Assembly (NCBI GenBank): GCA_002816455.1
Contig: MUCR01000006.1
Coordinates: 11,148-75,147, forward strand
Source of the DNA: SAR202 cluster bacterium Io17-Chloro-G4
Lineage (GTDB): Bacteria; Chloroflexota; Dehalococcoidia; Lucifugimonadales; UBA3495
Direction of reading: 5' to 3'
DNA length: 64,000 bases
The translations under genes were made by a program, and so were the position numbers. This document shows positions 3,951 through 61,736 of the stretch, piece by piece. The notes below the pieces were generated by a model. It did not search any database. It was given only the letters and a program-made list of their open reading frames with translations, and had not been told where the DNA came from. How positions within the stretch are numbered: position 1 is the stretch's first letter; every line of letters starts with the position of its first letter.

Positions 3951-3974
3951 TTCCTAGTTAAAAATTTCACGAAA

Positions 3975-4265
3975 CCCGCGATGAAGGGGAGTAGTAGGAA
4001 GGGCCCGTCCCAGAGAACCGGCGGTTGGTGCAAGCCGGTGACGGCAGCTTTCCGAACTCGCCCCGGAGCGGCCAGCCTAAACACTCAAGGCACTTGAGTT
4101 ATTAGGGTGAGGCGGTTAGACCCCGTTAGAAGTCTCCGAGTTGTTCCGACATTGCAGTGGGTTAGCATACCGCTGACGGCTGAACGCTGATAGCAAAGTT
4201 GCCGGAAAAGAAGGGTGGTACCGCGGGAAATATTCGCCCGTCCCTTCAGGGGGCGGGTTTTTTGT
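3975..4265 (+). promoter_or_regulatory. T-box riboswitch leader (probable Leu specifier CUC) with terminator
   Basis: GCGATGA...GAGTAGTA start, AGAGA and GGTGCAA stem-I elements, and GAA-CTC-G in the specifier position (CTC at 4057-4059). F-box CCGTTA is at 4123-4128 and the T-box AAGGGTGGTACCGCGG at 4211-4226. The terminator CCCGTCCC-ttcag-GGGGCGGG is followed by TTTTTT, ending about 4264. Confidence 0.85.
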
Positions 4266-4287: not shown

Positions 4288-5997
4288 ATGGAACCAACGG
4301 GGCCTTTAACCGGCGCAGAGATCGTATGTGAAAGCCTCCTAAAAGAGGGGGTGGATGTGCTTTTCGGTCTCCCAGGGGGCGCGGTCCTGCCCCTTTACGG
4401 AGCGTTGGCCAAGTACCCCCAGCTTCGTCATATCCTGGTGCGCCACGAGCAAGGCGCCTCCATGGCCGCCGACGGCTATGCCCGGGCCACGGGCAAAGTC
4501 GGGGTGTGCGTTGCGACCTCCGGTCCAGGCGCTACCAACCTGGTCACCGGAATTGCAGGCGCCATGATGGACTCAGTTCCCATGGTCGCCATCACCGGAC
4601 AGGTGCCCAGGCCCGCCATCGGCCGGGACGCTTTCCAGGAAACCGACGTCACCGGTATCACTTTGCCCATTACCAAGCACAGTTATTTGGTGATGGACGT
4701 GGCCGACGTCGCCCCTGCTATAAAGGAGGCATTCCACATCGCCCGCACGGGTAGGCCGGGACCGGTATTGGTGGATATTCCAAGAGATGTGCTTGCCGCA
4801 GATAAAACTGAGTTCATATGGCCGGAGCAGGTAGACCTGCCTGGTTATAATCCACCAAGCTTCGCACACCCCGCATTGGTTTCCCAAGCGGCAGAATTAA
4901 TAAACCAAGCGGAAAAGCCCGTCATTATTACCGGCCATGGGGTGCTAACTTCCCAGGCATCGCCGGAACTGCTGGAGTTTGCCGAAAAAACCCAGATCCC
5001 GGTGGTTTCTACCCTCTTGGGGATAAGTTCATTTCCTACAGGGCACATCCTGGACTTGGGTATGGCCGGCATGCACGGCATGGCCCACGCCATCTTGGCT
5101 ATAGACCAAGCCGATCTGCTAATTTCCCTGGGTATGCGCTTCGATGACCGGGTTACCGGTAGCCTAAAAGATTTTGCGCCCAACGCCAAGATTGTTCACG
5201 TGGACATTGACCCATCGGAACTTGGAAAAAACAAGAAAGCCGACGCGGCGGTGGCGGGTGACCTAAAGTGCGTCTTGCAGCAACTGATCCCCCAGGTAAC
5301 TCCCAACGTTCACATCGATTGGCTGCGCCATATAGAAAGTCTGAAGGGCGAGCACCCACCAATCCAAATCCGTGAGACTGAAGAGCTCTTGCCCCAACAT
5401 GTGCTGAGGGAGCTCTCAGAGGCAACCAAAGGGGATTCCATCATCGTGACGGGAGTGGGCCAACACCAGATGTGGGCGGCTCAATTCTGCGCCTTCCAAG
5501 AACCCAACACACTCATAACATCCGGGGGCCACGGGTCAATGGGCTTTGAGGTTCCCGCCGCTATCGGCGCTAAGCTAGGACGGCCGGAGAAAACAGTCTG
5601 GTCCGTTGCTGGCGACGGTGGTTTTCAAATGACCATGTGCGACCTGGCCACTGCCGTAGAGAACAATATCGACGTGAAGTTCGCCATCTTGAATAACGGC
5701 AGCCTAGGGATGGTTTATCAATTGCAAGACCTATTTTTTGACAAGGATTATTTCGCCACCGTTTACACGGGGAACCCTGACTTCGTCAAGCTAGCCGAGG
5801 CTTACGGAATCACCGGTATTAGGGTGAACGAGCAAAGCCAAGTGGCTGACGCCATCCAACAAGCGATGGAAGTGCCCGGTCCGGTGATCATCGACTTCGT
5901 GGTGAAGGAAATCGATAACGTCTATCCCATGATACCGTCGGGTCAGTCGGCCAAACAGATGCTGGAAGAATCCACTCCGAAACGGATTGATTATTAG
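4288..5997 (+). CDS. ilvB: Acetolactate synthase (acetohydroxyacid synthase) large subunit
   Basis: 569 aa. LTGAEIVCESLLKEGVDVLFGLPGGAVLPLY...RHEQGA..ADGYAR..GKVGVCVATSGPGATN and the ThDP motif GGHGSMGF...GDGGFQM. SD AGGGAG upstream. Followed by ilvN and ilvC. Confidence 0.95.
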   Translation: MEPTGPLTGAEIVCESLLKEGVDVLFGLPGGAVLPLYGALAKYPQLRHILVRHEQGASMAADGYARATGKVGVCVATSGPGATNLVTGIAGAMMDSVPMVAITGQVPRPAIGRDAFQETDVTGITLPITKHSYLVMDVADVAPAIKEAFHIARTGRPGPVLVDIPRDVLAADKTEFIWPEQVDLPGYNPPSFAHPALVSQAAELINQAEKPVIITGHGVLTSQASPELLEFAEKTQIPVVSTLLGISSFPTGHILDLGMAGMHGMAHAILAIDQADLLISLGMRFDDRVTGSLKDFAPNAKIVHVDIDPSELGKNKKADAAVAGDLKCVLQQLIPQVTPNVHIDWLRHIESLKGEHPPIQIRETEELLPQHVLRELSEATKGDSIIVTGVGQHQMWAAQFCAFQEPNTLITSGGHGSMGFEVPAAIGAKLGRPEKTVWSVAGDGGFQMTMCDLATAVENNIDVKFAILNNGSLGMVYQLQDLFFDKDYFATVYTGNPDFVKLAEAYGITGIRVNEQSQVADAIQQAMEVPGPVIIDFVVKEIDNVYPMIPSGQSAKQMLEESTPKRIDY

Positions 5998-10761: not shown

Positions 10762-11002
10762 AGTTTTCGGGCTTCCAAGCTTCTACGGCCTCAAGGGGAT
10801 GACTGGAACGTTTCGGAGTATATCACGGTGATGCCGCGCCATAGTTATGTAATGCAGTGTTTTTTTAGGCAGTCTATTACTGTTGCCATCGTAAGATAGG
10901 CTGGCCTGGGGTATAATCTGTCGGGTACAAACCAGATTGCTGGTTTGAGGATTGGTGTATCGAGACCAATGACACAAATAAGCCAACACCACAGGAGGAA
11001 AC

Positions 11003-11467
11003 ATGCCCGCTGAAGTCGGCGACATTGCGCCGGATTTTAAACTTCCATCAGTAGAACTAGGGGACATTAGTTTAAGCAGTTACCGGGGTGAAAAGACCGT
11101 TGTCCTGTCCTTCCACGTTTTTGATTTCACCGCTGGTTGAACCACAGCAGCAATGACGTTCCGGGGAGCCAATGACCGGTTCGTCGAGAAAAATGCCCAG
11201 GTTCTGGGCATAAGCTGCGACTCGGTTCACTCTCACAGAGCATGGTCCGCATCCATGGGCGGTCTGAACTACCCGGAGCTGTCCGACTTTCATCCAAAGG
11301 GCAAAGTTACCACCGAATACGGGCTTTGGAATGAAGAACGGGGAGCGGGCAGTAGGGCCGTGATCATCGTGGACAAAGAAGGCGTTATTCGCCACCGGCA
11401 GACCTACACGCCGGGTGTGTTGCCCGACGCCGAGCAAATATTGGGGATCGTGGACTCTCTATCCTAA
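11003..11467 (+). CDS. AhpE-like 1-Cys peroxiredoxin with in-frame TGA (codon 46, 11138-11140) at the peroxidatic-Cys position; candidate selenoprotein
   Basis: ATG at 11003 with SD AGGAGG (10993-10998). N-part is MPAEVGDIAPDFKLPS...YRGEKTVVLSFHVFDFTAG-TGA-TTAAMTFR, continuing in frame into the 104-aa tracked ORF 11153..11467. From memory, the alignment to M. tuberculosis AhpE (..VLLVFFPLAFTGICQGEL..LLSDFWPHG..) puts the TGA on the catalytic Cys. Confidence 0.6.
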
Positions 11468-11515
11468 TGCGTCAACTTAGTACTGCAACCCTCGATTCGA
11501 GACCTTAGAATCTGG

Positions 11516-11547
11516 CGGCCACGTTATTTTAAAATAAGGTGGCCGCT
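11516..11547. terminator. Long palindromic hairpin downstream of the peroxiredoxin gene (possible terminator)
   Basis: GCGGCCACgTTATTTT/AAAATAAgGTGGCCGC, a near-perfect 16-bp palindrome. No clear U-run. Confidence 0.4.
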
Positions 11548-11784
11548 GTCTTGTCCGGTCAGTCCTGTTTCAGTCCTGTTTAAGTTCCGGGCGGAGGATG
11601 TTGATTGTCGGGAGAGTTGGTTGCCGCGCTAATTTCTGCGCTCTTAAACATGGCCCTTTATTCCAGCCAACTCGCACTGTACTTTTGGGAACGGGGCCGG
11701 AGGTCCGGCCTGGGCAAAGAGCGGTTATTTGCCCCCTACTAGTACTACACCGGCAGCTTAGGCGACACCATCGGTCTCACCATA

Positions 11785-12138
11785 ATGTCAGTCGGTGTTG
11801 GCAACGCCTTCCTAGACGACTTGCGTTTTACCTCGTGGATGTCCTTGGCGCCGGCCCTTGGCCTAACGGTTTGCTGGGGTTATTACCGGTACTGCAGGTA
11901 TGCCGGGGTAAATGACTGGGGATTCAGCGGCGGTGCACTGACGATCGCAGGCCGGTTCCATTTGGTCTACATCTTCTTCGGGGTATCGGTGGCCGGCGCC
12001 GGGATTGGATTCCTAGCCAGCGGCAACTTTGATCCCTACCTGCTGGCGGCCGTTGCTGGCGGGATTTTCTACCTCCTGGCTTTTGCATTGGACCTACGGG
12101 CGGGCCACCACCAGACTCCCCAGAAATATAAGAGTTGA
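11785..12138 (+). CDS. Hypothetical small membrane protein
   Basis: 117 aa with hydrophobic segments (FHLVYIFFGVSVAGAGIGFLA, LLAAVAGGIFYLLAFAL). An upstream same-frame ORF from about 11605 is separated only by a TAG at 11740. Confidence 0.4.
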   Translation: MSVGVGNAFLDDLRFTSWMSLAPALGLTVCWGYYRYCRYAGVNDWGFSGGALTIAGRFHLVYIFFGVSVAGAGIGFLASGNFDPYLLAAVAGGIFYLLAFALDLRAGHHQTPQKYKS

Positions 12139-24644: not shown

Positions 24645-24697
24645 GTTCCAACGGGGCCTGATTCGGACTTGATACGTGAGTCCGGTCTAGGCTCGTT

Positions 24698-25064
24698 CCG
24701 CTCGTCCTGGGCCCTTCGACTAACTCAGGACAGGCTTGTCGAAGGATACCCATCGTTGGGTGTGCTTAGGCGGGACCCAGCACCTATGCGGCAACCAGGT
24801 ATCGCTCGTGGTGGGATTTCAAACGACCTAACTCACCTTAAACATGGCGATGGTTCGACAAGCTCACCACGAGCGCAAAATTTCGACCGTTCGTCCTGAG
24901 CCCTTCGACTAACTCAGGACAGGCTCGTCGAAGGATGTCCATCGTTGGGTATGCTTAGGCAGGTACCACCTCCCACCCCTGAATCAAGTATCGATCGTGG
25001 TGGGATTTCAAACGACCTAACTCGCCCTAATCACGGCTGGGGTTCGACAAGCTCACCACGAACG
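24698..25064. repeat. Two tandem copies of a ~178-bp composite family A element
   Basis: Copies at 24698-24875 and 24887-25064 (period 189 bp). Each runs ccgYtcgtcctgRgcccttcgactaactcaggacaggctYgtcgaaggat...atcgtggtgggatttcaaacgacctaactc...ggttcgacaagctcaccacgaRcg. A third copy is at 36616-36794. Confidence 0.85.
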
Positions 25065-25074
25065 TAGTCACTAA

Positions 25075-30530: not shown

Positions 30531-30714
30531 CCAAAAACTATACTAACACAACGCCCTGTGTTGATTCCTAATAACATGAGGGGCCTGGTAACAGAAAGGG
30601 CGTTCAAAGGCAGTGGCCGCCTGATATAAAGGGGACGCACTCAAGCCTATTTAGCCGTTTCTCATACCGTAGCAGATTGACACCAAGCCGTCTCTATGGT
30701 ACGGTTTTTGGGCA

Positions 30715-31000
30715 AAAGCTGTGATGGAGACGAGTAACTAAGGTGGGCGCTGAGCGAGCCTGGTATGGTGGAAGCAGGCGCGCCGAACTTAGATAAAAAT
30801 CCCTCCGGAGCTGCCAGCTGAAGCCTTCTCTAAGCTATCAATTGGCGTAGGGAACAAGTAAGCCAGGCCGGGTTCGTCGCCCGTTACCAACGACGGGGCA
30901 TGTTAGTGCCCTGCTAGAGAGGTCCCGATGTAATCGGGATAAATAGGGTGGTACCGCGGGAATATTGAACTCCCGTCCCTATATGGGGACGGGTTTTTTA
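30715..31000 (+). promoter_or_regulatory. Second T-box riboswitch leader (probable Leu specifier CUU) with terminator
   Basis: GTGATGGAGACGAGTAAC start, AGCGA and GGTGGAA elements, and GAA-CTT-A (CTT at 30788-30790). F-box CCGTTA is at 30881-30886 and the T-box AAATAGGGTGGTACCGCGGG at 30941-30960. The perfect terminator CCCGTCCC-ctatatg-GGGACGGG is followed by TTTTTT. Confidence 0.85.
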
Positions 31001-31172
31001 TTTGCCCAAAACTGCGGCGCTCCAATGGCCCATCTCAGCAGGGAATATTCGAGATTCACGGATGAGATTGGGACGAATGGAGACCAAAGTCGAAAGCCGG
31101 TCACAGCTCTTTTCTTTAGCTGACCCGGATATGGACCAAGAGGAAGGGAGCTCGTGCCGCCGGGAGGCCGCT

Positions 31173-32906
31173 GTGAAAAACAACCCATCTAGCGCCCAGC
31201 CAAATACGGGCAAGAGAAAGCTCAGGGGCGCCGAGATCATCTGCGAAAGCCTGCTCCGAGAGGGAGCGGACGTAATTTTCGGCTACCCCGGCGGGGCTAT
31301 CCTCCCGTTTTACGATGCTCTTTGGAGTTATCCTCAGTTGCGCCACATCCTGGTGCGCCACGAGCAGTCTGCAGCCCATGCCGCCGATGGCTATTCCAGG
31401 GTCACCGGCAAAGTAGGCGTCTGTGTAGCCACATCCGGCCCCGGCGCCACCAACTTGGTTACGGGCATAATGGGCGCAAAGGCGGACTCAGTGCCAATGA
31501 TTGCCATAACGGGGCAAGTAGCCAGGGCTGCTTTGGGAACAGAGGCGTTTCAAGAGTGCGATATTTGCGGCATCGCATCCTCTTGCACAAAAGCAACCTT
31601 CATGGTGATGTCGGCTGCGGACTTGGCTCCTACCATTCGCGAAGCCTTCCGAATCGCATTGGAAGGACGTCCCGGGCCGGTGCTAATTGACGTGCCTCGG
31701 GATGTTCAAATAGAAGAGGTAGAGATCGAGTTCCCTGAAATTGCCGAGGCGCTGGCGGAACCTGTGTCCCCGGAAACGTTGGAAGGAGTGCAGCAAGCGG
31801 CCCGCCTCATTAATCAAGCCGAACGCCCGGTAATCATAACCGGGCATGGTGTTCTGACCTCCTGGGCAAACCAAGAAGTGAAGGGGTTGGCCGAATCCAC
31901 CGGGATTCCGGTCATTACAACCTTGCTGGGGTTGGGTGGCATACCGTCGGATCACCCGTTGAGCTTGGGCATGTTGGGAATGCACGGCATGTATTGGTCC
32001 AATATGGCGGTGGACCAAGCAGATCTGGTGATTGGGTTGGGAATGAGATTCGACGACCGGGTAACCGGCAAGGCGTCAACCTTTGCGCCCCACGCCCGGA
32101 TAATCCACCTGGACATAGACCCAACGCAAGTGGGCCGCAACGTCCCTGTGGAAGTGCCATTAGTGGGCGACGCCAAGGCGGTCTTGCGGGAACTGTTGCC
32201 CTTGGTTTCTCATGTGGAACGCAAGCCGTGGATGGACCATCTGTCCCAGCTAAGGCAGGACCATCCTTCATTGACCATTCCGCCCTCCGATGCGCTTCAG
32301 GCTCAGCAGGTGCTGGCCAATCTGAACGAGCTGATGCGGGAGAACCCGGACACAATCGTAGTCACTGGAGTGGGCCAGCACCAGATGTGGGCAGCCCAGT
32401 TCTTGGGATTTAATAAACCGGGCACGTTTGTGTCATCCGGCGGCCTGGGAGCAATGGGTTTTGAATTGCCAGCTGCATTGGGCGCCCAGATTGGCCGGCC
32501 CGATGCCACCGTTTGGAGTATTGCCGGAGACGGCGGTTTTCAAATGACCCTGCAAGAGCTGGCCACGGCCACAGAGTCGAAGTTGCCGGTCAAGATAGCC
32601 TTGATCAACAACGGGTATTTGGGCATGGTCCGCCAATGGCAGGAGATGTATTTCGAGAACCACCTCAAAGCGGTGCCGATACCCGGGCCGGACTACCTCA
32701 AGTTGGCTGAGGCCTACGGCGTGCCCGCTTTACGGGTGACCGAGCCGGAAGATGTGCTCCCGGCGATGCGCCAAGCGGAAGCCCATGATGGGCCGTTCCT
32801 GATAGAGTTCGTGACGGAAGCCACTGCCAACGTCTACCCGATGGTGCCGCCTGGCGGATCCCTGGGAGACACGTTGGAAGACCCGCTAGTGCAACTGGGG
32901 CATTAG
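31173..32906 (+). CDS. Acetolactate synthase large-subunit paralog (orphan, no adjacent small subunit)
   Basis: LRGAEIICESLLREGADVIFGYPGGAILPFY...RHEQSAAHAADGYSR.TGKVGVCVATSGPGATN...GGLGAMGF...GDGGFQM is collinear with the ilvB product. The tracked ORF start at 31002 lies inside the T-box terminator. GTG at 31173 has SD GGGAGG 5 nt upstream; ATG at 31131 is an alternative. Confidence 0.85.
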   Translation: MKNNPSSAQPNTGKRKLRGAEIICESLLREGADVIFGYPGGAILPFYDALWSYPQLRHILVRHEQSAAHAADGYSRVTGKVGVCVATSGPGATNLVTGIMGAKADSVPMIAITGQVARAALGTEAFQECDICGIASSCTKATFMVMSAADLAPTIREAFRIALEGRPGPVLIDVPRDVQIEEVEIEFPEIAEALAEPVSPETLEGVQQAARLINQAERPVIITGHGVLTSWANQEVKGLAESTGIPVITTLLGLGGIPSDHPLSLGMLGMHGMYWSNMAVDQADLVIGLGMRFDDRVTGKASTFAPHARIIHLDIDPTQVGRNVPVEVPLVGDAKAVLRELLPLVSHVERKPWMDHLSQLRQDHPSLTIPPSDALQAQQVLANLNELMRENPDTIVVTGVGQHQMWAAQFLGFNKPGTFVSSGGLGAMGFELPAALGAQIGRPDATVWSIAGDGGFQMTLQELATATESKLPVKIALINNGYLGMVRQWQEMYFENHLKAVPIPGPDYLKLAEAYGVPALRVTEPEDVLPAMRQAEAHDGPFLIEFVTEATANVYPMVPPGGSLGDTLEDPLVQLGH

Positions 32907-36471: not shown

Positions 36472-36615
36472 TGGATCCCCTTTTTTGGAATTAGTTTGGT
36501 GATTAGACTTAGCCTAGTCAGACTAAAATCATACCCGCTCATCTTGAGCTTGTCGAAGAACCTTCATCATTGGACACGCTTGGGTGGCTTCCCATCACAA
36601 TCGTAGGCTCTACCT

Positions 36616-36794
36616 CCGTTCGTCCTGAGCTTATCGAAGGATTTCCATCGTCAAGTGTGCATAGGTGGGTCTCATGGTCTACACCGCCGCCAGCGCTCGA
36701 TCGTTGTATTCGTTCCAATAACCTAACTTACCCGCATCGTGGCGGTGGTTCGACAAGCCTGTCCTGAGCGGCGCCGAAGGGCTCACCACGAACG
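36616..36794. repeat. Third copy of the ~178-bp composite family A element
   Basis: ccgttcgtcctgagcttatcgaaggatttccatcg...ggttcgacaagcctgtcctgagcggcgccgaagggctcaccacgaacgg is collinear with the 24698-25064 copies. Confidence 0.8.
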
Positions 36795-36862
36795 GGCAGG
36801 GAATCCATGAAGCAAGCCTCCGCTCATCCCGACCTCGCCGAAGAAATACCTTGTTCTAATTT

Positions 36863-41720: not shown

Positions 41721-41809
41721 ATCAACCTTTTATATGAATCCGAGACCTTTGACAAGATACGCACTGCCAGCCCTTGACCCTATCTGTGGCCCGTGTTATT
41801 TTTTCTTTG

Positions 41810-42160
41810 GAAACAGAATAGCGTGCGGTGTCCCGATGTTTCATTCGTGAAACATCGGGAAGAATAGGGAAGCCGGTGAAACTCCGGCACGGGCCCGCCA
41901 CTGTAAATGGGTAGCTCTCCGGCTTGCGACAGCGCAGCCACTGCTTCGGACCACCGGAGTGGGAAGGCGCCGGACAGCGTTGATCCATAAGTCAGAAGAC
42001 CTGCCGCACAAACAACACGTGGGCTTTGGTGGACGGACCAGCATTTTTTCGGCTGGCCCATCGCCAACAGTCCGGGTGACTATCCGCTTCGTGGATTGAG
42101 CGGGCGTCTTTGGTATATAAAAAGCCCCCGCTACAAATTAGGCGGGGGCTTTTCTTTTTC
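41810..42160 (+). promoter_or_regulatory. Cobalamin riboswitch with terminator expression platform
   Basis: Core AGGGAAGCCGGTGAAACTCCGGCACGGGCCCGCCACTGTAA (about 41866-41906). B12 box AAGTCAGAAGACCTGCC (41989-42006). Terminator GCCCCCGC-tacaaatta-GCGGGGGC followed by TTTTCTTTTT (42123-42159). Confidence 0.85.
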
Positions 42161-42194
42161 CGGGTCTGGGCAGACGTTCCGGAGAGAGGATTGG

Positions 42195-42980
42195 ATGATT
42201 GAGAGGGGTCAGGGCATGAATGAAACTGAATTTGGTCCAGCGGGCGATTCGGATTTAGGGGGATTTCAGATAGAGAATTTCTCCGAATCAGAGCGCCAAG
42301 CAGTATACCGCGCTATCTACGAAAGACGGGACATACGCCATTTCCGGAGCGAACCTATTCCCGACGATGTTTTGGCCCGGATAATCCAAGCCGCCCACCA
42401 CGGACCTTCGGTGGGCTTCATGCAGCCCTGGGACTTCATTCTGATTAAGGACCTCGACGTGCGGAGGCAGGTTAAAGAACTCTTCCACAAGGAACGTCAG
42501 GCTGCTTCCTGCTTTTTTGAAGAACCGCGGCGTTCCCAATACCTGTCTTTCAAGCTGGAAGGCATATTGGAATCCCCGGTCAACGTGTGCGTCACCTGCG
42601 ACCCCACCCGTGCCGGAGAAGTGTTGGGGAGGAACTCCATCCCGGAAACCGATGTCTACTCCACCTGTTGCGCCATTCAGAACCTGTGGCTGGCGGCGCG
42701 TTGTGAGGGCATCGGCGTTGGCTGGGTCAGTATTCTTAATCCCCTCCAGCTTCACCAGATCCTGGGGGTCCCGGCCCACATCTTACCTGTAGCTTACCTT
42801 TGCCTGGGCTACCCTACCCAGTTTTACGAGCAACCAATGTTGGAGAAGGCCGGCTGGCGGGAGCGTTTGCCGGTAGACCCTCTGATTCACCTCGATGGCT
42901 GGTCGGGTCAATCCGGCTCGGGCTGGGATAACTTTTTGGAAGAAATTGGCAACACAGCCCAGGGTGAAACCGAAAGTTAG
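42195..42980 (+). CDS. bluB: 5,6-dimethylbenzimidazole synthase (BluB, nitroreductase fold)
   Basis: F...E..AVYRAI..RRDIRHF....IPDDVL..I..AAH.GPSVGFMQPW.F and the nitroreductase-fold remainder. ATG at 42195 follows SD GGAGAGAGG. The tracked start at 42096 lies upstream of the riboswitch terminator, so an ORF from there would span it. Confidence 0.8.
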   Translation: MIERGQGMNETEFGPAGDSDLGGFQIENFSESERQAVYRAIYERRDIRHFRSEPIPDDVLARIIQAAHHGPSVGFMQPWDFILIKDLDVRRQVKELFHKERQAASCFFEEPRRSQYLSFKLEGILESPVNVCVTCDPTRAGEVLGRNSIPETDVYSTCCAIQNLWLAARCEGIGVGWVSILNPLQLHQILGVPAHILPVAYLCLGYPTQFYEQPMLEKAGWRERLPVDPLIHLDGWSGQSGSGWDNFLEEIGNTAQGETES

Positions 42981-43118: not shown

Positions 43119-43556
43119 TTGGCCTCAGATACCCAGCGCATCGATCGTTACCGCAAGCAAAGCATAAATCTGCTTCAGGGAGCGCTGCAGCAAATTAAAC
43201 AAGGCCATTGGACCCGTTCAGAAGACCTGCTGTGGGGCAGTCTCACCTTGGCCGTAAAAGGGGTCGGCTTGAGCCGAGGTGATCACCTGACCGACGATGA
43301 AGAGGTCAGGGAATACGCCACCCAATTGGGCCATGATCACCGAGACCGGCGCCTGCGCGAAGCGTTCACTCAACTATCCAACTTCGGTGAATCCGTGGAG
43401 CGCTTGAGGGAGGCCCGGTTTAGAGTTGACCGGATAATCCCTATGCTTGAAGACGTTAGCTCGGCCATCGAGAGATTGTGGGAAATGGTCCCGTCGGCCA
43501 ACTTGGCTGCGGAGCCCGAAGGCCCTGAGACGGCGGTTGGCCACGATGCGGAATAG
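43119..43556 (+). CDS. Hypothetical alpha-helical protein (possibly PaREP1/HEPN-like)
   Basis: 145 aa. The pattern ..A......G.W....E.LWGS..LAVKGV...RG.HL....E........ loosely recalls PaREP1-type helical bundles. Its 3' end overlaps the mtaB start by 11 nt. Confidence 0.35.
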   Translation: MASDTQRIDRYRKQSINLLQGALQQIKQGHWTRSEDLLWGSLTLAVKGVGLSRGDHLTDDEEVREYATQLGHDHRDRRLREAFTQLSNFGESVERLREARFRVDRIIPMLEDVSSAIERLWEMVPSANLAAEPEGPETAVGHDAE

Positions 43557-52709: not shown

Positions 52710-52806
52710 AAATTACGGGGCTTAATTCTAGCACGATTCGTGGCCTGGGTTCAGAGGCGATCCACACCAAGGGGTAACCTTCCTTCTCGTCGGGGGCCGC
52801 TCCCCC

Positions 52807-52910
52807 GTTAGTGGTGAGCTTGTCGAACCACCTGGGTGATCGAACATTGGTCCTTCGACAGGTCCGACTTTGTCGAGACTCTCGATGGAATCGGAGCTCA
52901 GGATGAGCGG
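52807..52910. repeat. Family A repeat units (degenerate)
   Basis: gttagtggtgagcttgtcgaaccacc ... tccttcgacaggtcc ... ggagctcaggatgagcgg. Confidence 0.6.
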
Positions 52911-52959
52911 ACTGCTAACATCCACCGCACTGGGGACAGGGCTTTTTTACCCCACCATC

Positions 52960-56936: not shown

Positions 56937-57191
56937 ATGTCGAGTGCAGATCACCTAAATACTTACGCCGAAGGCTGGACCAAAGGGGAGGCAGCCATCA
57001 TCTTAAGGGCGGTGGACGATGGTTACACGCTAGACGATCCCAACTTCGGGATGATATCCAAGGGAGAGTTTTCCGATTACCTGGCTGGCTTCAAGCAGCA
57101 AGTAGAATCCATACGTGGAAACATCGGTGGCTCTCTCATAGAACTCACCGAGATTGTCACTCAGGAGGAAGCAGGAATCTTGACTGCTTGA
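56937..57191 (+). CDS. Hypothetical NTF2/SnoaL-like protein; the reading frame stays open past TGA (57189-57191) to 57305
   Basis: 84 aa to the TGA. 37 further in-frame codons (AWWSVPGTEIQGTGLIKVGDKGVVSERLTYYTKLADS) look like the missing beta-strands of an approximately 120-aa NTF2-like fold. Confidence 0.45.
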   Translation: MSSADHLNTYAEGWTKGEAAIILRAVDDGYTLDDPNFGMISKGEFSDYLAGFKQQVESIRGNIGGSLIELTEIVTQEEAGILTA

Positions 57192-57350
57192 GCTTGGTGG
57201 TCGGTCCCCGGCACCGAAATACAAGGCACCGGCCTGATAAAAGTCGGTGACAAGGGAGTAGTGTCCGAGCGCCTAACGTACTATACCAAACTCGCCGACA
57301 GCTGACCTTTGGGTACCTGACCTAACAGTAGAGATACAGGCGGTGGAATA

Positions 57351-61500: not shown

Positions 61501-61598
61501 GGGATTTTCCAGTAAAGATTGATTCGGAAAGGCTCAGTACGAGTGGTTGCACCTTACATTGCTGATGTGGTCTACCTAATCGGCCTTGATGGCGGATA

Positions 61599-61688
61599 TC
61601 CTTCGACAAGCTCAGGAAGAGCGGGAACGCTCATACCGCTCATGGTGAGCCCTTCGGCTCGGCTCAGGACAGGCTTGTCGAACCATCC
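61599..61688. repeat. Family A repeat units
   Basis: tccttcgacaagctcaggaagagcgg...ccgctcatggtgagcccttcggctcggctcaggacaggcttgtcgaaccatcc. Confidence 0.75.
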
Positions 61689-61736
61689 TTTCGGGTATGG
61701 GCTGGTGGATTTTCAGCGCAAGTACAAACACTTGAC

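What the first reader, a model, noticed from the sequence alone, without database searches (positions are those of the whole stretch)
11003..11467. AhpE-like peroxiredoxin with TGA at the catalytic cysteine codon: candidate selenocysteine peroxiredoxin
The ORF track reports only a 104-aa C-terminal fragment (11153..11467). An ATG at 11003, preceded by a strong AGGAGG, opens the same frame. It encodes MPAEVGDIAPDFKLPSVELGDISLSSYRGEKTVVLSFHVFDFTAG, then TGA (11138-11140), then TTAAMTFRGANDRF..., running into the tracked ORF. The joined 154-codon product is a complete 1-Cys peroxiredoxin. As I recall the M. tuberculosis AhpE sequence (..NVLLVFFPLAFTGICQGEL.. and ..LLSDFWPHGAVSQAYGVFNEQ..NRGTFVVDRSGIIRF), the TGA falls exactly where the peroxidatic Cys sits (FT.G-C/U). 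Sec-for-Cys replacement in Prx-like proteins is a known class of bacterial selenoproteins. A hairpin that could be a SECIS starts 15 nt after the TGA: GACG-UU-CCGG[GGAGCCAAUGA]CCGG-UU-CGUC at 11155-11185. The alternative explanation is a nonsense mutation or pseudogene.
Basis: partly seen in the sequence, partly recalled or inferred. Interest (0 to 1): 0.8.

Follow-up and report, generated by a model that had tools for sequence, protein, structure and literature searches.

The report
Selenocysteine peroxiredoxin gene, mis-called as truncated
This is a real peroxide-detoxifying enzyme gene whose catalytic residue is selenocysteine encoded by UGA, conserved in at least 80 related Dehalococcoidia species; it is a further example of a selenoprotein type known since 2001 that gene callers routinely cut in two.

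Summary
An ATG at 11003 behind AGGAGG opens a 154-codon frame with one in-frame TGA (11138-11140), ending at TAA 11465-11467. The joined product is a complete AhpC/TSA peroxiredoxin.

Codon 46 aligns with the peroxidatic Cys45 of M. tuberculosis AhpE. True homologues carry Cys there.

The TGA is not a lesion. All 87 sequences examined, including 80 species-representative genomes that are nearly all Dehalococcoidia, have TGA at this codon. Both halves are under purifying selection (dN/dS 0.08 and 0.14). The ATG of the tracked 104-aa ORF exists in only 8 of 81 orthologues.

It is absent from a distant Cys homologue and persists in a syntenic Cys orthologue. It fits the published bacterial SECIS model only partly, because its loop is 11 nt.

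No Sec machinery lies in the window. However, the two nearest relatives' genomes are in BSepDB's top ten selenoprotein-rich bacteria (49 and 46 genes).

Verdict: a genuine Sec-peroxiredoxin, a new member of a known kind. Its oddities are Val in place of the canonical active-site Pro and an invariant single Cys72. Interest is low to moderate.

The parts
10993..10998 (+). Shine-Dalgarno sequence AGGAGG, 4 nt before the start codon
   Evidence: Read directly from the sequence.
11003..11467 (+). Complete selenoprotein coding sequence: 154 codons (ATG to TAA) with Sec at codon 46; an AhpC/TSA-family peroxiredoxin
   Evidence: Translation. Pfam PF00578 E = 1.2e-34 spanning the TGA. Orthologues keep the frame on both sides. 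dN/dS is 0.075 for codons 1-45 and 0.135 for codons 47-140.
11138..11140 (+). UGA codon 46, read as selenocysteine; the peroxidatic residue in the motif T43-A-G-U46
   Evidence: TGA in 87 of 87 sequences. Aligns with AhpE Cys45. Cys homologues have TGC. Database 'W' at this column is TGA translated with another table (L089).
11155..11185 (+). SECIS-like hairpin: lower stem 11155-11158/11182-11185, UU/UU internal loop, upper stem 11161-11164/11176-11179, 11-nt apical loop 11165-11175 beginning GG
   Evidence: Folded (-12.4 kcal/mol for the hairpin alone). Upper stem 94% paired across 77 sequences, with compensatory pairs at columns 37-47 and 36-48. Sec set mean z = -2.77 against synonymous recodings; window z = -1.69. 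Meets 3 of 4 published bSECIS criteria.
11114..11119 (+). Codons His38-Val39; Val39 occupies the column of the canonical Pro of the peroxiredoxin PxxxTxxC motif
   Evidence: Alignment to AhpE puts V39 opposite Pro and H38 opposite Phe. H38 and V39 are invariant in 81 distinct orthologues.
11216..11218 (+). Codon Cys72 (GIS-C-D), the only cysteine in the protein; candidate partner for a selenenylsulfide with U46 (inferred)
   Evidence: Invariant in 81 orthologues, and Cys in 113 of 120 database homologues. Aligns with Val in AhpE. Its spatial proximity to U46 was not tested.
11354..11356 (+). Codon Arg118, the conserved active-site arginine of peroxiredoxins
   Evidence: Aligns with the AhpE active-site Arg. 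Invariant in 81 orthologues.
11153..11467 (+). The 104-aa ORF seen by ORF finders: an artefact of stopping at UGA, not a separate gene
   Evidence: Its ATG (codon 51) occurs in only 8 of 81 orthologues; codon 51 is ACC in 66. Public catalogues hold many 104, 103, 94 and 88-aa fragments of this family.
11513..11548 (+). Very stable hairpin about 47 nt after the stop codon; possible transcription terminator without a U-run (function inferred)
   Evidence: -28.4 kcal/mol, z = -4.55, and 0 of 200 shuffles fold as well. Not found by the consensus terminator scan. Equivalent sequence is visible in L007 and L008.

Best explanation
Positions 11003-11467 encode one 154-residue peroxiredoxin in which codon 46, UGA, is decoded as selenocysteine. 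During translation, a stem-loop in the mRNA beginning 14 nt after the UGA (11155-11185) is bound by the Sec-specific elongation factor SelB carrying Sec-tRNA(Sec). SelB delivers Sec to the ribosome in competition with release factor 2. The selenolate of U46 sits in the T-x-x-U active site, supported by Thr43 and Arg118. It attacks hydroperoxides and is oxidised to a selenenic acid. This is then reduced either directly by a thiol reductant, as in 1-Cys AhpE, or after forming a selenenylsulfide with the invariant Cys72. Shown here: the gene structure, the Cys/Sec column, conservation of the UGA, purifying selection on both halves, and conservation and covariation of the hairpin. Inferred: SelB binding, actual Se incorporation, peroxidase activity, the role of Cys72, and the reductant.
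For: The domain is continuous across the TGA. TGA is present in 87 of 87 sequences, including 80 species-representative genomes with protein identity down to 67%. Homologues carry Cys (TGC) at the same column, one of them in the same LeuA...Prx...GreA synteny. The column aligns with AhpE Cys45, Thr and Arg. Median dN/dS is 0.075 upstream and 0.135 downstream of the TGA, and there is no conserved start codon after it. For the hairpin, the upper stem is 94% paired, with C-G/U-A exchange at columns 37-47 (54 versus 14 sequences) and G-C/C-G exchange at 36-48. The lower stem changes sequence but stays complementary. Synonymous sites are frozen: GGT 77/77, TTC 77/77, CGG 72/77 and 71/77. The hairpin is more stable than synonymous recodings, with mean z = -2.77 and 88% of sequences at p <= 0.05. 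It is absent in the distant Cys homologue L088 (z = -0.30). TGA is an ordinary stop elsewhere: 5 of 45 long ORFs in the window and 27% across the loci. The genomes of the two closest relatives, L007 and L008, are named in BSepDB Table 2 with 46 and 49 selenoprotein genes, and BSepDB requires at least two of SelA, SelB and SelD. Sec-peroxiredoxins with TxxU are an established family.
Against: No selA, selB, selD or tRNA-Sec is in the 64-kb window, and no tRNA gene is in the 614 kb of related loci. So Sec machinery in this particular genome is inferred, not shown. The window's own hairpin is weak: z = -0.97 against shuffles and z = -1.69, p = 0.067, against synonymous recodings. Its 11-nt loop violates the 3-9 nt limit of the published bSECIS model, and only 40 of 77 orthologues pass all four criteria. 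This window also holds at least two other in-frame stops that look like errors or fresh mutations. An in-frame stop seen in this one assembly is therefore weak evidence by itself. The canonical active-site Pro is missing (Val39), and no biochemical data exist for this clade.
Confidence: 0.92

Rival explanations
1. The TGA is a nonsense mutation, a pseudogene lesion, or a sequencing or assembly error at a TGC/TGT Cys codon in this one genome.
For: This window does contain such events. There is a TGG-to-TGA change at a universally conserved Trp codon in the NTF2-like gene at 57189. There is also a CAG-to-TAG change in the membrane-protein gene at 11740. The window's hairpin alone is not significant.
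Against: TGA sits at the identical codon in 87 of 87 sequences from independent assemblies with different contig-naming styles, spanning 80 species. There is strong purifying selection on both sides. The downstream hairpin is conserved and covaries.
Confidence: 0.01
2. UGA terminates translation here, and the locus makes two products: a 45-residue peptide, and a separate 104-residue C-terminal protein started at ATG 11153.
For: ORF finders and public annotations call exactly these pieces. L005 and L006 have both pieces called as separate genes.
Against: The ATG at codon 51 is present in only 8 of 81 orthologues, and 73 of 81 have no in-frame ATG in codons 47-62. Codons 47-50 are conserved in frame. 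The Pfam domain is split through its active site by this reading. A fragment lacking Thr43 and residue 46 cannot be a peroxidase. The N-terminal 45 codons show dN/dS of 0.075.
Confidence: 0.01
3. UGA is read through but as a standard amino acid. This could be Trp or Gly through genome-wide reassignment, Trp by near-cognate read-through, or Cys delivered by the Sec machinery when selenium is scarce.
For: Public catalogues list 'W' at this column in several full-length homologues. TGA is an unusually rare stop in this window, 5 of 45. One other gene in the window has TGA at a Trp codon.
Against: The catalogue 'W' is TGA in the DNA and does not reproduce under table 11 (L089). TGA does terminate genes here and in relatives, and the long ORFs are intact under the standard code. 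Trp or Gly at the peroxidatic position would abolish catalysis, whereas homologues have Cys. The orthologue of the TGA-at-Trp gene has TAG at another Trp codon, which points to G-to-A errors or mutations rather than recoding. A conserved downstream hairpin is the hallmark of Sec insertion, not of reassignment. Occasional Cys insertion under selenium limitation cannot be excluded, and it would not change what the gene is.
Confidence: 0.04

Closest known systems
Sec-containing peroxiredoxin family with a TxxU active site: PrxU of Eubacterium acidaminophilum (Sohling et al. 2001, cited in PMC13188914), and the 'Prx' selenoprotein family of the Sargasso Sea and of sequenced genomes (PMC1088965, PMC1794560)
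   Same: Pfam PF00578 domain. Sec replaces the peroxidatic Cys in T-x-x-U. UGA is followed by a coding-region stem-loop. Cys-containing homologues are widespread.
   Different: It is not the PrxU equivalog: NCBIfam NF040737 scores 67 bits against a cut-off of 270. It is short (154 aa) and AhpE-like in architecture, whereas the PrxU model is longer (233 profile positions). It lacks the Pro of the 'PxxxTxxU' motif that the review describes as highly conserved.
Mycobacterium tuberculosis AhpE (Rv2238c; PDB 1XXU, 1XVW, 4X0X), a 1-Cys peroxiredoxin
   Same: Best solved-structure match (E = 2.5e-22 to 5.5e-21). Same length. 139 residues align with a single one-residue gap. Peroxidatic residue, Thr and Arg are in register.
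   Different: Identity is only 34.5%. It has Sec instead of Cys, Val39 instead of Pro, His38 instead of Phe, and an invariant Cys72 where AhpE has Val. The score margin over Prx1-type and BCP-type structures is small, 83 against 77-78 bits. The hosts are Dehalococcoidia, and nothing here shows that they make AhpE's mycothiol/mycoredoxin reductant system. My expectation that they do not rests on my own knowledge and was not tested.
'Fossil' SECIS-like structures in Cys-containing genes that evolved from Sec-containing ancestors (Zhang et al. 2006, PMC1794560, Figure 4)
   Same: L087 is a syntenic orthologue with TGC. It retains the lower stem and part of the upper stem, z = -3.98 against synonymous recodings.
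   Different: That paper tabulated no Sec-to-Cys conversion for Prx; it listed five Cys-to-Sec events. If the direction inferred here is right, L087 would be a Sec-to-Cys example in this family. No phylogeny was built here to prove the direction.
Thiol peroxidase Prx-SUH selenoprotein (NCBIfam NF045827; Haft-type family listed in PMC13188914)
   Same: A Sec-containing thiol peroxidase of the Trx-fold superfamily.
   Different: Its motif is CxxU rather than TxxU. It scores 32 bits against a cut-off of 298.

Membership tests
Bacterial selenoprotein gene | In-frame UGA aligned with Cys in homologues (Sec/Cys pair) | tested here: met
   U46 aligns with Cys in P0004, P0024, P0038 and P0072 and with AhpE Cys45. 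The DNA is TGC in L087 and L088.
Bacterial selenoprotein gene | UGA-containing orthologues in other organisms, with the frame conserved on both sides | tested here: met
   87 of 87 sequences have TGA. dN/dS is 0.075 and 0.135.
Bacterial selenoprotein gene | bSECIS model criterion (i): apical loop of 3-9 nt on an upper stem of 4-16 bp (PMC13188914, Fig. 2A) | tested here: not met
   The window has a 4-bp upper stem but an 11-nt loop. The majority of orthologues have a 5-bp stem and a 9-nt loop.
Bacterial selenoprotein gene | bSECIS criteria (ii) G in the first two loop positions, (iii) 16-37 nt from UGA to the loop, (iv) MFE <= -7.5 kcal/mol | tested here: met
   In the window the loop starts GG, the spacing is 24 nt, and the hairpin is -12.4 kcal/mol. 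Across the orthologues, 40 of 77 pass all four criteria.
Bacterial selenoprotein gene | Evolutionary support for the stem-loop (covariation, synonymous constraint, loss in Cys forms) | tested here: met
   Every shuffle fell below the observed covariation score (0 of 500). Mean z = -2.77 against recodings. The hairpin is absent in L088.
Bacterial selenoprotein gene | selA, selB, selD and tRNA-Sec (selC) present in the same genome | not testable with these tools
   None lies in the 64-kb window, and the rest of the genome is not available. Indirect support: BSepDB classes the genomes of L007 and L008 as Sec users with 46 and 49 selenoproteins.
Bacterial selenoprotein gene | Selenium physically incorporated at the UGA position | not testable with these tools
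   This needs 75Se labelling or mass spectrometry.
Peroxiredoxin (AhpC/TSA, PF00578) | Full-length domain match above the curated threshold | tested here: met
   119.3 bits against a cut-off of 26, covering profile positions 1-123 of 124.
Peroxiredoxin (AhpC/TSA, PF00578) | Active-site Thr, peroxidatic Cys/Sec and Arg | tested here: met
   T43, U46 and R118 align with the AhpE residues and are invariant in 81 orthologues.
Peroxiredoxin (AhpC/TSA, PF00578) | Pro of the PxxxTxxC/U motif | tested here: not met
   Val39 occupies the Pro column in all 81 orthologues. Cys-form relatives have Val or Ile there.
AhpE subfamily of peroxiredoxins | Closest to AhpE rather than to other Prx subfamilies | tested here: inconclusive
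   AhpE is the top PDB hit (82.7 bits; the other AhpE entries about 78 bits) with one gap in 139 residues. Prx1-type and BCP-type chains score 77-78 bits, and identity to AhpE is 34.5%. No NCBIfam model reaches its cut-off.
AhpE subfamily of peroxiredoxins | 1-Cys mechanism (no resolving Cys) with a mycothiol/mycoredoxin-type reductant | not testable with these tools
   An invariant second Cys (C72) exists. Its role and the reductant are unknown.
PrxU (NCBIfam NF040737, Sec-containing thioredoxin-dependent peroxiredoxin) | Score at or above the equivalog cut-off | tested here: not met
   67.1 bits against a cut-off of 270.

The most novel reading that the evidence does not exclude
The window's gene may belong to a distinct, so far undescribed peroxiredoxin clade centred on Dehalococcoidia (including SAR202). 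The clade would be defined by the invariant motif S-F-H-V-F-D-F-T-x-G-U, in which Val replaces the canonical Pro and a His precedes it, and by a single invariant Cys72 that resolves the selenenic acid as a selenenylsulfide. About half of its SECIS elements fall outside the canonical bacterial model: they lack a G in the first two loop positions or have a loop above 9 nt. That would point to a lineage-specific SelB-SECIS recognition mode in some of the most selenoprotein-rich bacteria known.
Probability: 0.25. Interest if true: 0.45.

Novelty: new member of a known kind. Interest (0 to 1): 0.27.

Why it matters
In practical terms, this family is systematically mis-annotated. Public catalogues hold it as 88-104-aa fragments, or as full-length proteins with a spurious Trp at the catalytic position. 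No curated NCBIfam model recognises it. As a result the main-chain peroxidase of many Dehalococcoidia and SAR202 genomes is invisible to metabolic reconstructions.

Biologically, it adds a well-supported case to the evidence that some Dehalococcoidia rely heavily on selenium (BSepDB top ten). The case has 80 species, compensatory changes, and a fossil SECIS in a Cys orthologue.

The non-canonical active site (Pro to Val, plus Cys72) and the partly non-canonical SECIS are modest leads for enzymology and for improving SECIS models. None of this overturns current understanding.

Tried and rejected
1. Hairpin significance from the single sequence. Shuffles give z = -0.97, so this was rejected as evidence on its own.

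2. A single fixed secondary structure for all orthologues. The lower stem changes register between clades (30-54 in the window, 30-55 in most), so fixed-structure counts under-report it. I used a per-sequence synonymous-recoding null instead.

3. An alternative helix UUGAACC(9-15)/GGUUCGA(50-56) that encloses the UGA. It is 90.7% paired, but that equals the shuffled expectation because the columns are almost invariant. It can be neither supported nor excluded.

4. Rfam. No family matches the element even at E <= 10.

5. Consensus promoter and terminator scan. Nothing useful was found around the gene.

6. tRNA-Sec search. ARAGORN on the window and on all 614 kb of loci found no tRNA genes.

7. 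selA, selB and selD by Pfam on 51 ORFs across the window. None was found.

8. A search for a second selenoprotein gene in the window, as internal proof of Sec decoding. A coding-potential screen of all TGAs gave two candidates.
- The one at 57189 is a TGG-to-TGA change at an invariant Trp in an NTF2-like gene. Its orthologue has TAG at another Trp. It was rejected.
- The one at 43220 (- strand) has no family hit and was not pursued.
- The screen's thresholds would have missed the Prx itself, which scores 0.20 and 0.22, so the screen is not exhaustive.

9. BSepDB supplementary tables, to confirm that this very family is listed for UBA1141. They are not held in the library.

10. Global reassignment of TGA. 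This was rejected because TGA terminates genes here and in relatives.

Full report
**1. The observation**

- AGGAGG lies at 10993-10998.
- The ATG is at 11003.
- The frame is open to TGA at 11138-11140 (codon 46) and continues to TAA at 11465-11467.
- The mechanical ORF list shows only a 45-aa piece (11003..11140) and a 104-aa piece (11153..11467).

The joined 154-residue product matches Pfam AhpC-TSA (PF00578) at E = 1.2e-34. The match covers residues 5-131 and profile positions 1-123 of 124. One domain therefore runs through the TGA. The proposed hairpin is at 11155-11185. Taken alone it is unremarkable: z = -0.97 against dinucleotide shuffles.

**2. Is the TGA a lesion?**

It is not.

A protein search returned a telling pattern. 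It gave a few full-length relatives of 153-164 aa and dozens of fragments of 104, 103, 94 or 88 aa that begin just after the TGA column. Several of the full-length entries show Trp at the catalytic column. For one of these (P0002, locus L089) the DNA has TGA, and the called gene does not reproduce the catalogue protein under table 11. The 'W' is therefore a translation-table artefact.

A scan of one genome per species found 307 relatives. The best 80 are almost all Dehalococcoidia/Chloroflexota MAGs, including SAR202. In the window, those 80 loci and six further contigs, the codon is TGA in 87 of 87 sequences. The frame is intact on both sides, at protein identities down to 67%.

Selection supports this.
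- Against the window sequence, median dN/dS is 0.075 for codons 1-45 and 0.135 for codons 47-140.
- The ATG that opens the tracked 104-aa ORF is present in only 8 of 81 distinct orthologues.
- Codon 51 is ACC in 66 of them.

The nonsense/pseudogene reading and the two-ORF reading are both excluded.

TGA is still an ordinary stop in this lineage. It ends 5 of 45 long ORFs in the window and 27% of long ORFs across the loci. The code is therefore not reassigned.

**3. Is it the catalytic column?**

Yes.

The best solved-structure matches are M. tuberculosis AhpE (5C04, 4X0X, 1XXU, 1XVW; E = 2.5e-22 to 5.5e-21). The alignment covers 139 residues with one gap and 34.5% identity. Residue 46 lies opposite AhpE's peroxidatic Cys. 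Thr43 and Arg118 lie opposite the active-site Thr and Arg.

True Cys forms exist.
- L087 (TGC) sits in the same LeuA...Prx...GreA synteny as the window.
- L088 (TGC) is a more distant relative.

**4. The hairpin**

I aligned 77 distinct 84-nt segments without gaps and in codon register (A2).

- **Upper stem** (columns 33-37/47-51; window 11161-11164/11176-11179). It is paired in 94% of cells. Double-sided changes occur at 37-47 (C-G in 54 sequences, U-A in 14) and at 36-48 (G-C in 71, C-G in 2).
- **Lower stem.** It changes sequence between clades (GACG/CGUC, CCUC/GAGG, CUUC/GAAG) and shifts register by one nucleotide, yet it stays complementary.
- **Synonymous sites.** They are frozen around the element: GGT before the UGA in 77/77, TTC in 77/77, and the two Arg codons as CGG in 72 and 71 of 77. 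An ordinary third position (column 75) varies freely.
- **Synonymous-recoding null.** Recoding each sequence's peptide with the window's codon usage gives a mean z of -2.77 for the Sec set. 88% of sequences reach p <= 0.05. The window itself gives z = -1.69, p = 0.067.
- **Cys controls.** The distant Cys homologue L088 has no hairpin (z = -0.30). The syntenic Cys orthologue L087 retains most of it (z = -3.98). This is the 'fossil SECIS' pattern described by Zhang et al. 2006.

I also tested the published bacterial SECIS model (PMC13188914, Fig. 2A). The window meets three criteria: G in the first two loop positions (GG), 24-nt spacing, and -12.4 kcal/mol. It fails the 3-9 nt loop limit, with an 11-nt loop. 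Only 40 of 77 orthologues pass all four criteria. BSepDB itself notes that 12.6% of its entries lack a canonical SECIS. Rfam has no matching family.

The element is therefore a conserved, correctly placed, covarying stem-loop. That it functions as a SECIS is a well-supported inference, not a demonstration.

**5. Sec machinery**

The window holds no tRNA gene and no SelA, SelB or SelD domain protein among 51 ORFs scanned. The 614 kb of related loci hold no tRNA genes either. The direct test was therefore not possible.

There is indirect support.
- The two closest relatives of the window's gene are L007 (chromosome OY761986.2, isolate 10f4566d-ab44-49ae-b774-fc9f760c6436; 90% protein identity) and L008 (Dehalococcoidia bacterium UBA1141; 86%).
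- Both organisms appear by name in BSepDB's Table 2 of the ten bacteria with the most selenoprotein genes, with 46 and 49.
- BSepDB admits a species only if at least two of SelA, SelB and SelD are found.
- The window is a different species from both, at 74-85% DNA identity. The inference is therefore by relatedness.

**6. Mechanism**

What is shown: one gene, a UGA at the peroxidatic column, and a conserved downstream stem-loop.

What is inferred from the established bacterial pathway (PMC13188914): SelB carrying Sec-tRNA(Sec) binds the stem-loop and decodes the UGA in competition with RF2.

The selenolate of U46, in the T43-A-G-U46 motif with R118, would reduce hydroperoxides.

Two features depart from textbook peroxiredoxins.
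- Val39 sits where the canonical Pro of PxxxTxxC/U belongs, and His38 precedes it.
- Cys72 (GIS-C-D) is the only cysteine in the protein.

Both features are invariant in all 81 distinct orthologues. Cys72 is present in 113 of 120 catalogue homologues.

By analogy with the thioredoxin fold, residue 72 lies at the end of the strand that follows the active-site helix. That position is near the active site. Cys72 is therefore a plausible partner for a selenenylsulfide. This rests on my own structural reasoning and was not tested, because no coordinates were available.

**7. Comparison with what is known**

Sec-peroxiredoxins with TxxU are long established.
- PrxU of Eubacterium acidaminophilum was described in 2001.
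- There were 43 such genes in the Sargasso Sea, the second most abundant family there.
- There were 12 in genomes sequenced by 2006.

This protein is not the PrxU equivalog (67 bits against a cut-off of 270) and not Prx-SUH (32 against 298). No curated NCBIfam model reaches its cut-off.

AhpE is the nearest solved structure and shares the protein's compact architecture. The margin over other subfamilies is small, so AhpE-subfamily membership is inconclusive. The right label is 'Sec-containing peroxiredoxin (TxxU), AhpE-like in architecture'.

The orthologues in UBA1141 and in the 10f4566d genome are probably among the selenoproteins already counted by BSepDB. I could not verify this.

**8. Side findings**

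A screen for further Sec genes in the window turned up an NTF2/SnoaL-like gene (56937-57305) with TGA at 57189.
- All homologues have Trp at that column.
- The DNA there is TGG in L092 and L093.
- The L007-genome orthologue has TAG at a different Trp codon.

These are G-to-A changes, not Sec.

A conserved small membrane-protein gene lies just downstream of the Prx. In the window it carries an in-frame TAG (11740-11742) where L008 has Gln. In L007 it carries a frameshift.

These cases show that an in-frame stop in this assembly is not evidence of recoding by itself. The Prx case rests on cross-species conservation.

TAG is the commonest stop codon, at 21 of 45 long ORFs in the window and 45% across the loci, at 56-59% GC.

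**9. Verdict**

The gene is a genuine, conserved selenocysteine peroxiredoxin that ORF finders and public annotation split or mistranslate. It is a new member of a known kind. Its active site is unusual, and its SECIS is only partly canonical. Interest is low to moderate.

Noticed in passing
window 56937-57305 (+), TGA at 57189-57191: An NTF2/SnoaL-like 122-aa gene upstream of the AtuA-like gene has an in-frame TGA where every homologue has Trp (TGG in L092 and L093). The orthologue in the L007 genome (L091) has TAG at a different Trp codon. The downstream sequence is intact. This looks like G-to-A assembly error or very recent nonsense mutation, not Sec.
   Followed up: yes
window about 11605-12138 (+), TAG at 11740-11742: A conserved small membrane-protein gene lies immediately downstream of the Prx. 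It is intact in L008. In the window it is interrupted by an in-frame TAG where L008 has Gln, and in L007 by a frameshift. It is absent from L001-L004 (no Pfam hit).
   Followed up: partly
whole window, and loci L001-L090: Stop-codon usage is unusual for 56-59% GC. The window has TAG 21, TAA 19 and TGA 5 among 45 long ORFs. The loci have TAG 45%, TAA 28% and TGA 27%. TAG-dominant usage in a selenoprotein-rich lineage may be worth a genome-wide look.
   Followed up: partly
L087:3001-3462 (ENA scaffold LUOE20-1...scaffold_106): A syntenic orthologue has TGC (Cys) at the Sec codon yet still carries most of the SECIS-like hairpin, z = -3.98 against recodings. Its nearest Sec relatives are L063 and L065. 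It is probably a recent Sec-to-Cys switch.
   Followed up: partly
public protein catalogues (P0001-P0003, P0005-P0007, P0014, P0042, P0060; L089): Full-length database entries for this family show Trp at the catalytic position because the contigs were translated with TGA as Trp. Others are 88-104-aa fragments. Some NCBI entries are named 'redoxin domain-containing protein' or 'hypothetical protein'.
   Followed up: yes
window 11137-11143 and 11178-11184 (alignment A2 columns 9-15 and 50-56): UUGAACC, which includes the UGA, is complementary to GGUUCGA in the 3' half of the hairpin. This gives an alternative 7-bp helix that is mutually exclusive with the SECIS stem. It is paired in 90.7% of cells, but the columns are nearly invariant, so covariation cannot decide. 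The Gly codon before the UGA is GGT in 77 of 77.
   Followed up: partly
window 11513-11548 (+): A very stable hairpin lies about 47 nt after the Prx stop codon: -28.4 kcal/mol, z = -4.55. It has no U-run. It appears conserved in L007 and L008. It may be a terminator or a regulatory element for the downstream gene.
   Followed up: partly
window 24645-25074, 36472-36862, 52710-52959, 61501-61736: Several intergenic gaps share repeated sequence that translates as recurring strings (STSLS., FDKLR..G, GELVEP). This suggests a dispersed intergenic repeat family.
   Followed up: no
window 3972-4248, 30712-30983 and 41809-42022: Two T-box leaders each precede an acetolactate-synthase-like TPP enzyme. 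One (4288-5997) heads an ilvB-ilvN-ilvC-leuA cluster, and the other is at 31002-32906. A cobalamin riboswitch precedes a nitroreductase-family gene at 42096-42980.
   Followed up: no
L025 (Candidatus Entotheonellaceae MAG) and L072 ('Proteobacteria bacterium' MAG): The same Sec-Prx, with TGA at codon 46, occurs in MAGs labelled outside Chloroflexota. This is either horizontal spread or mis-binning.
   Followed up: no
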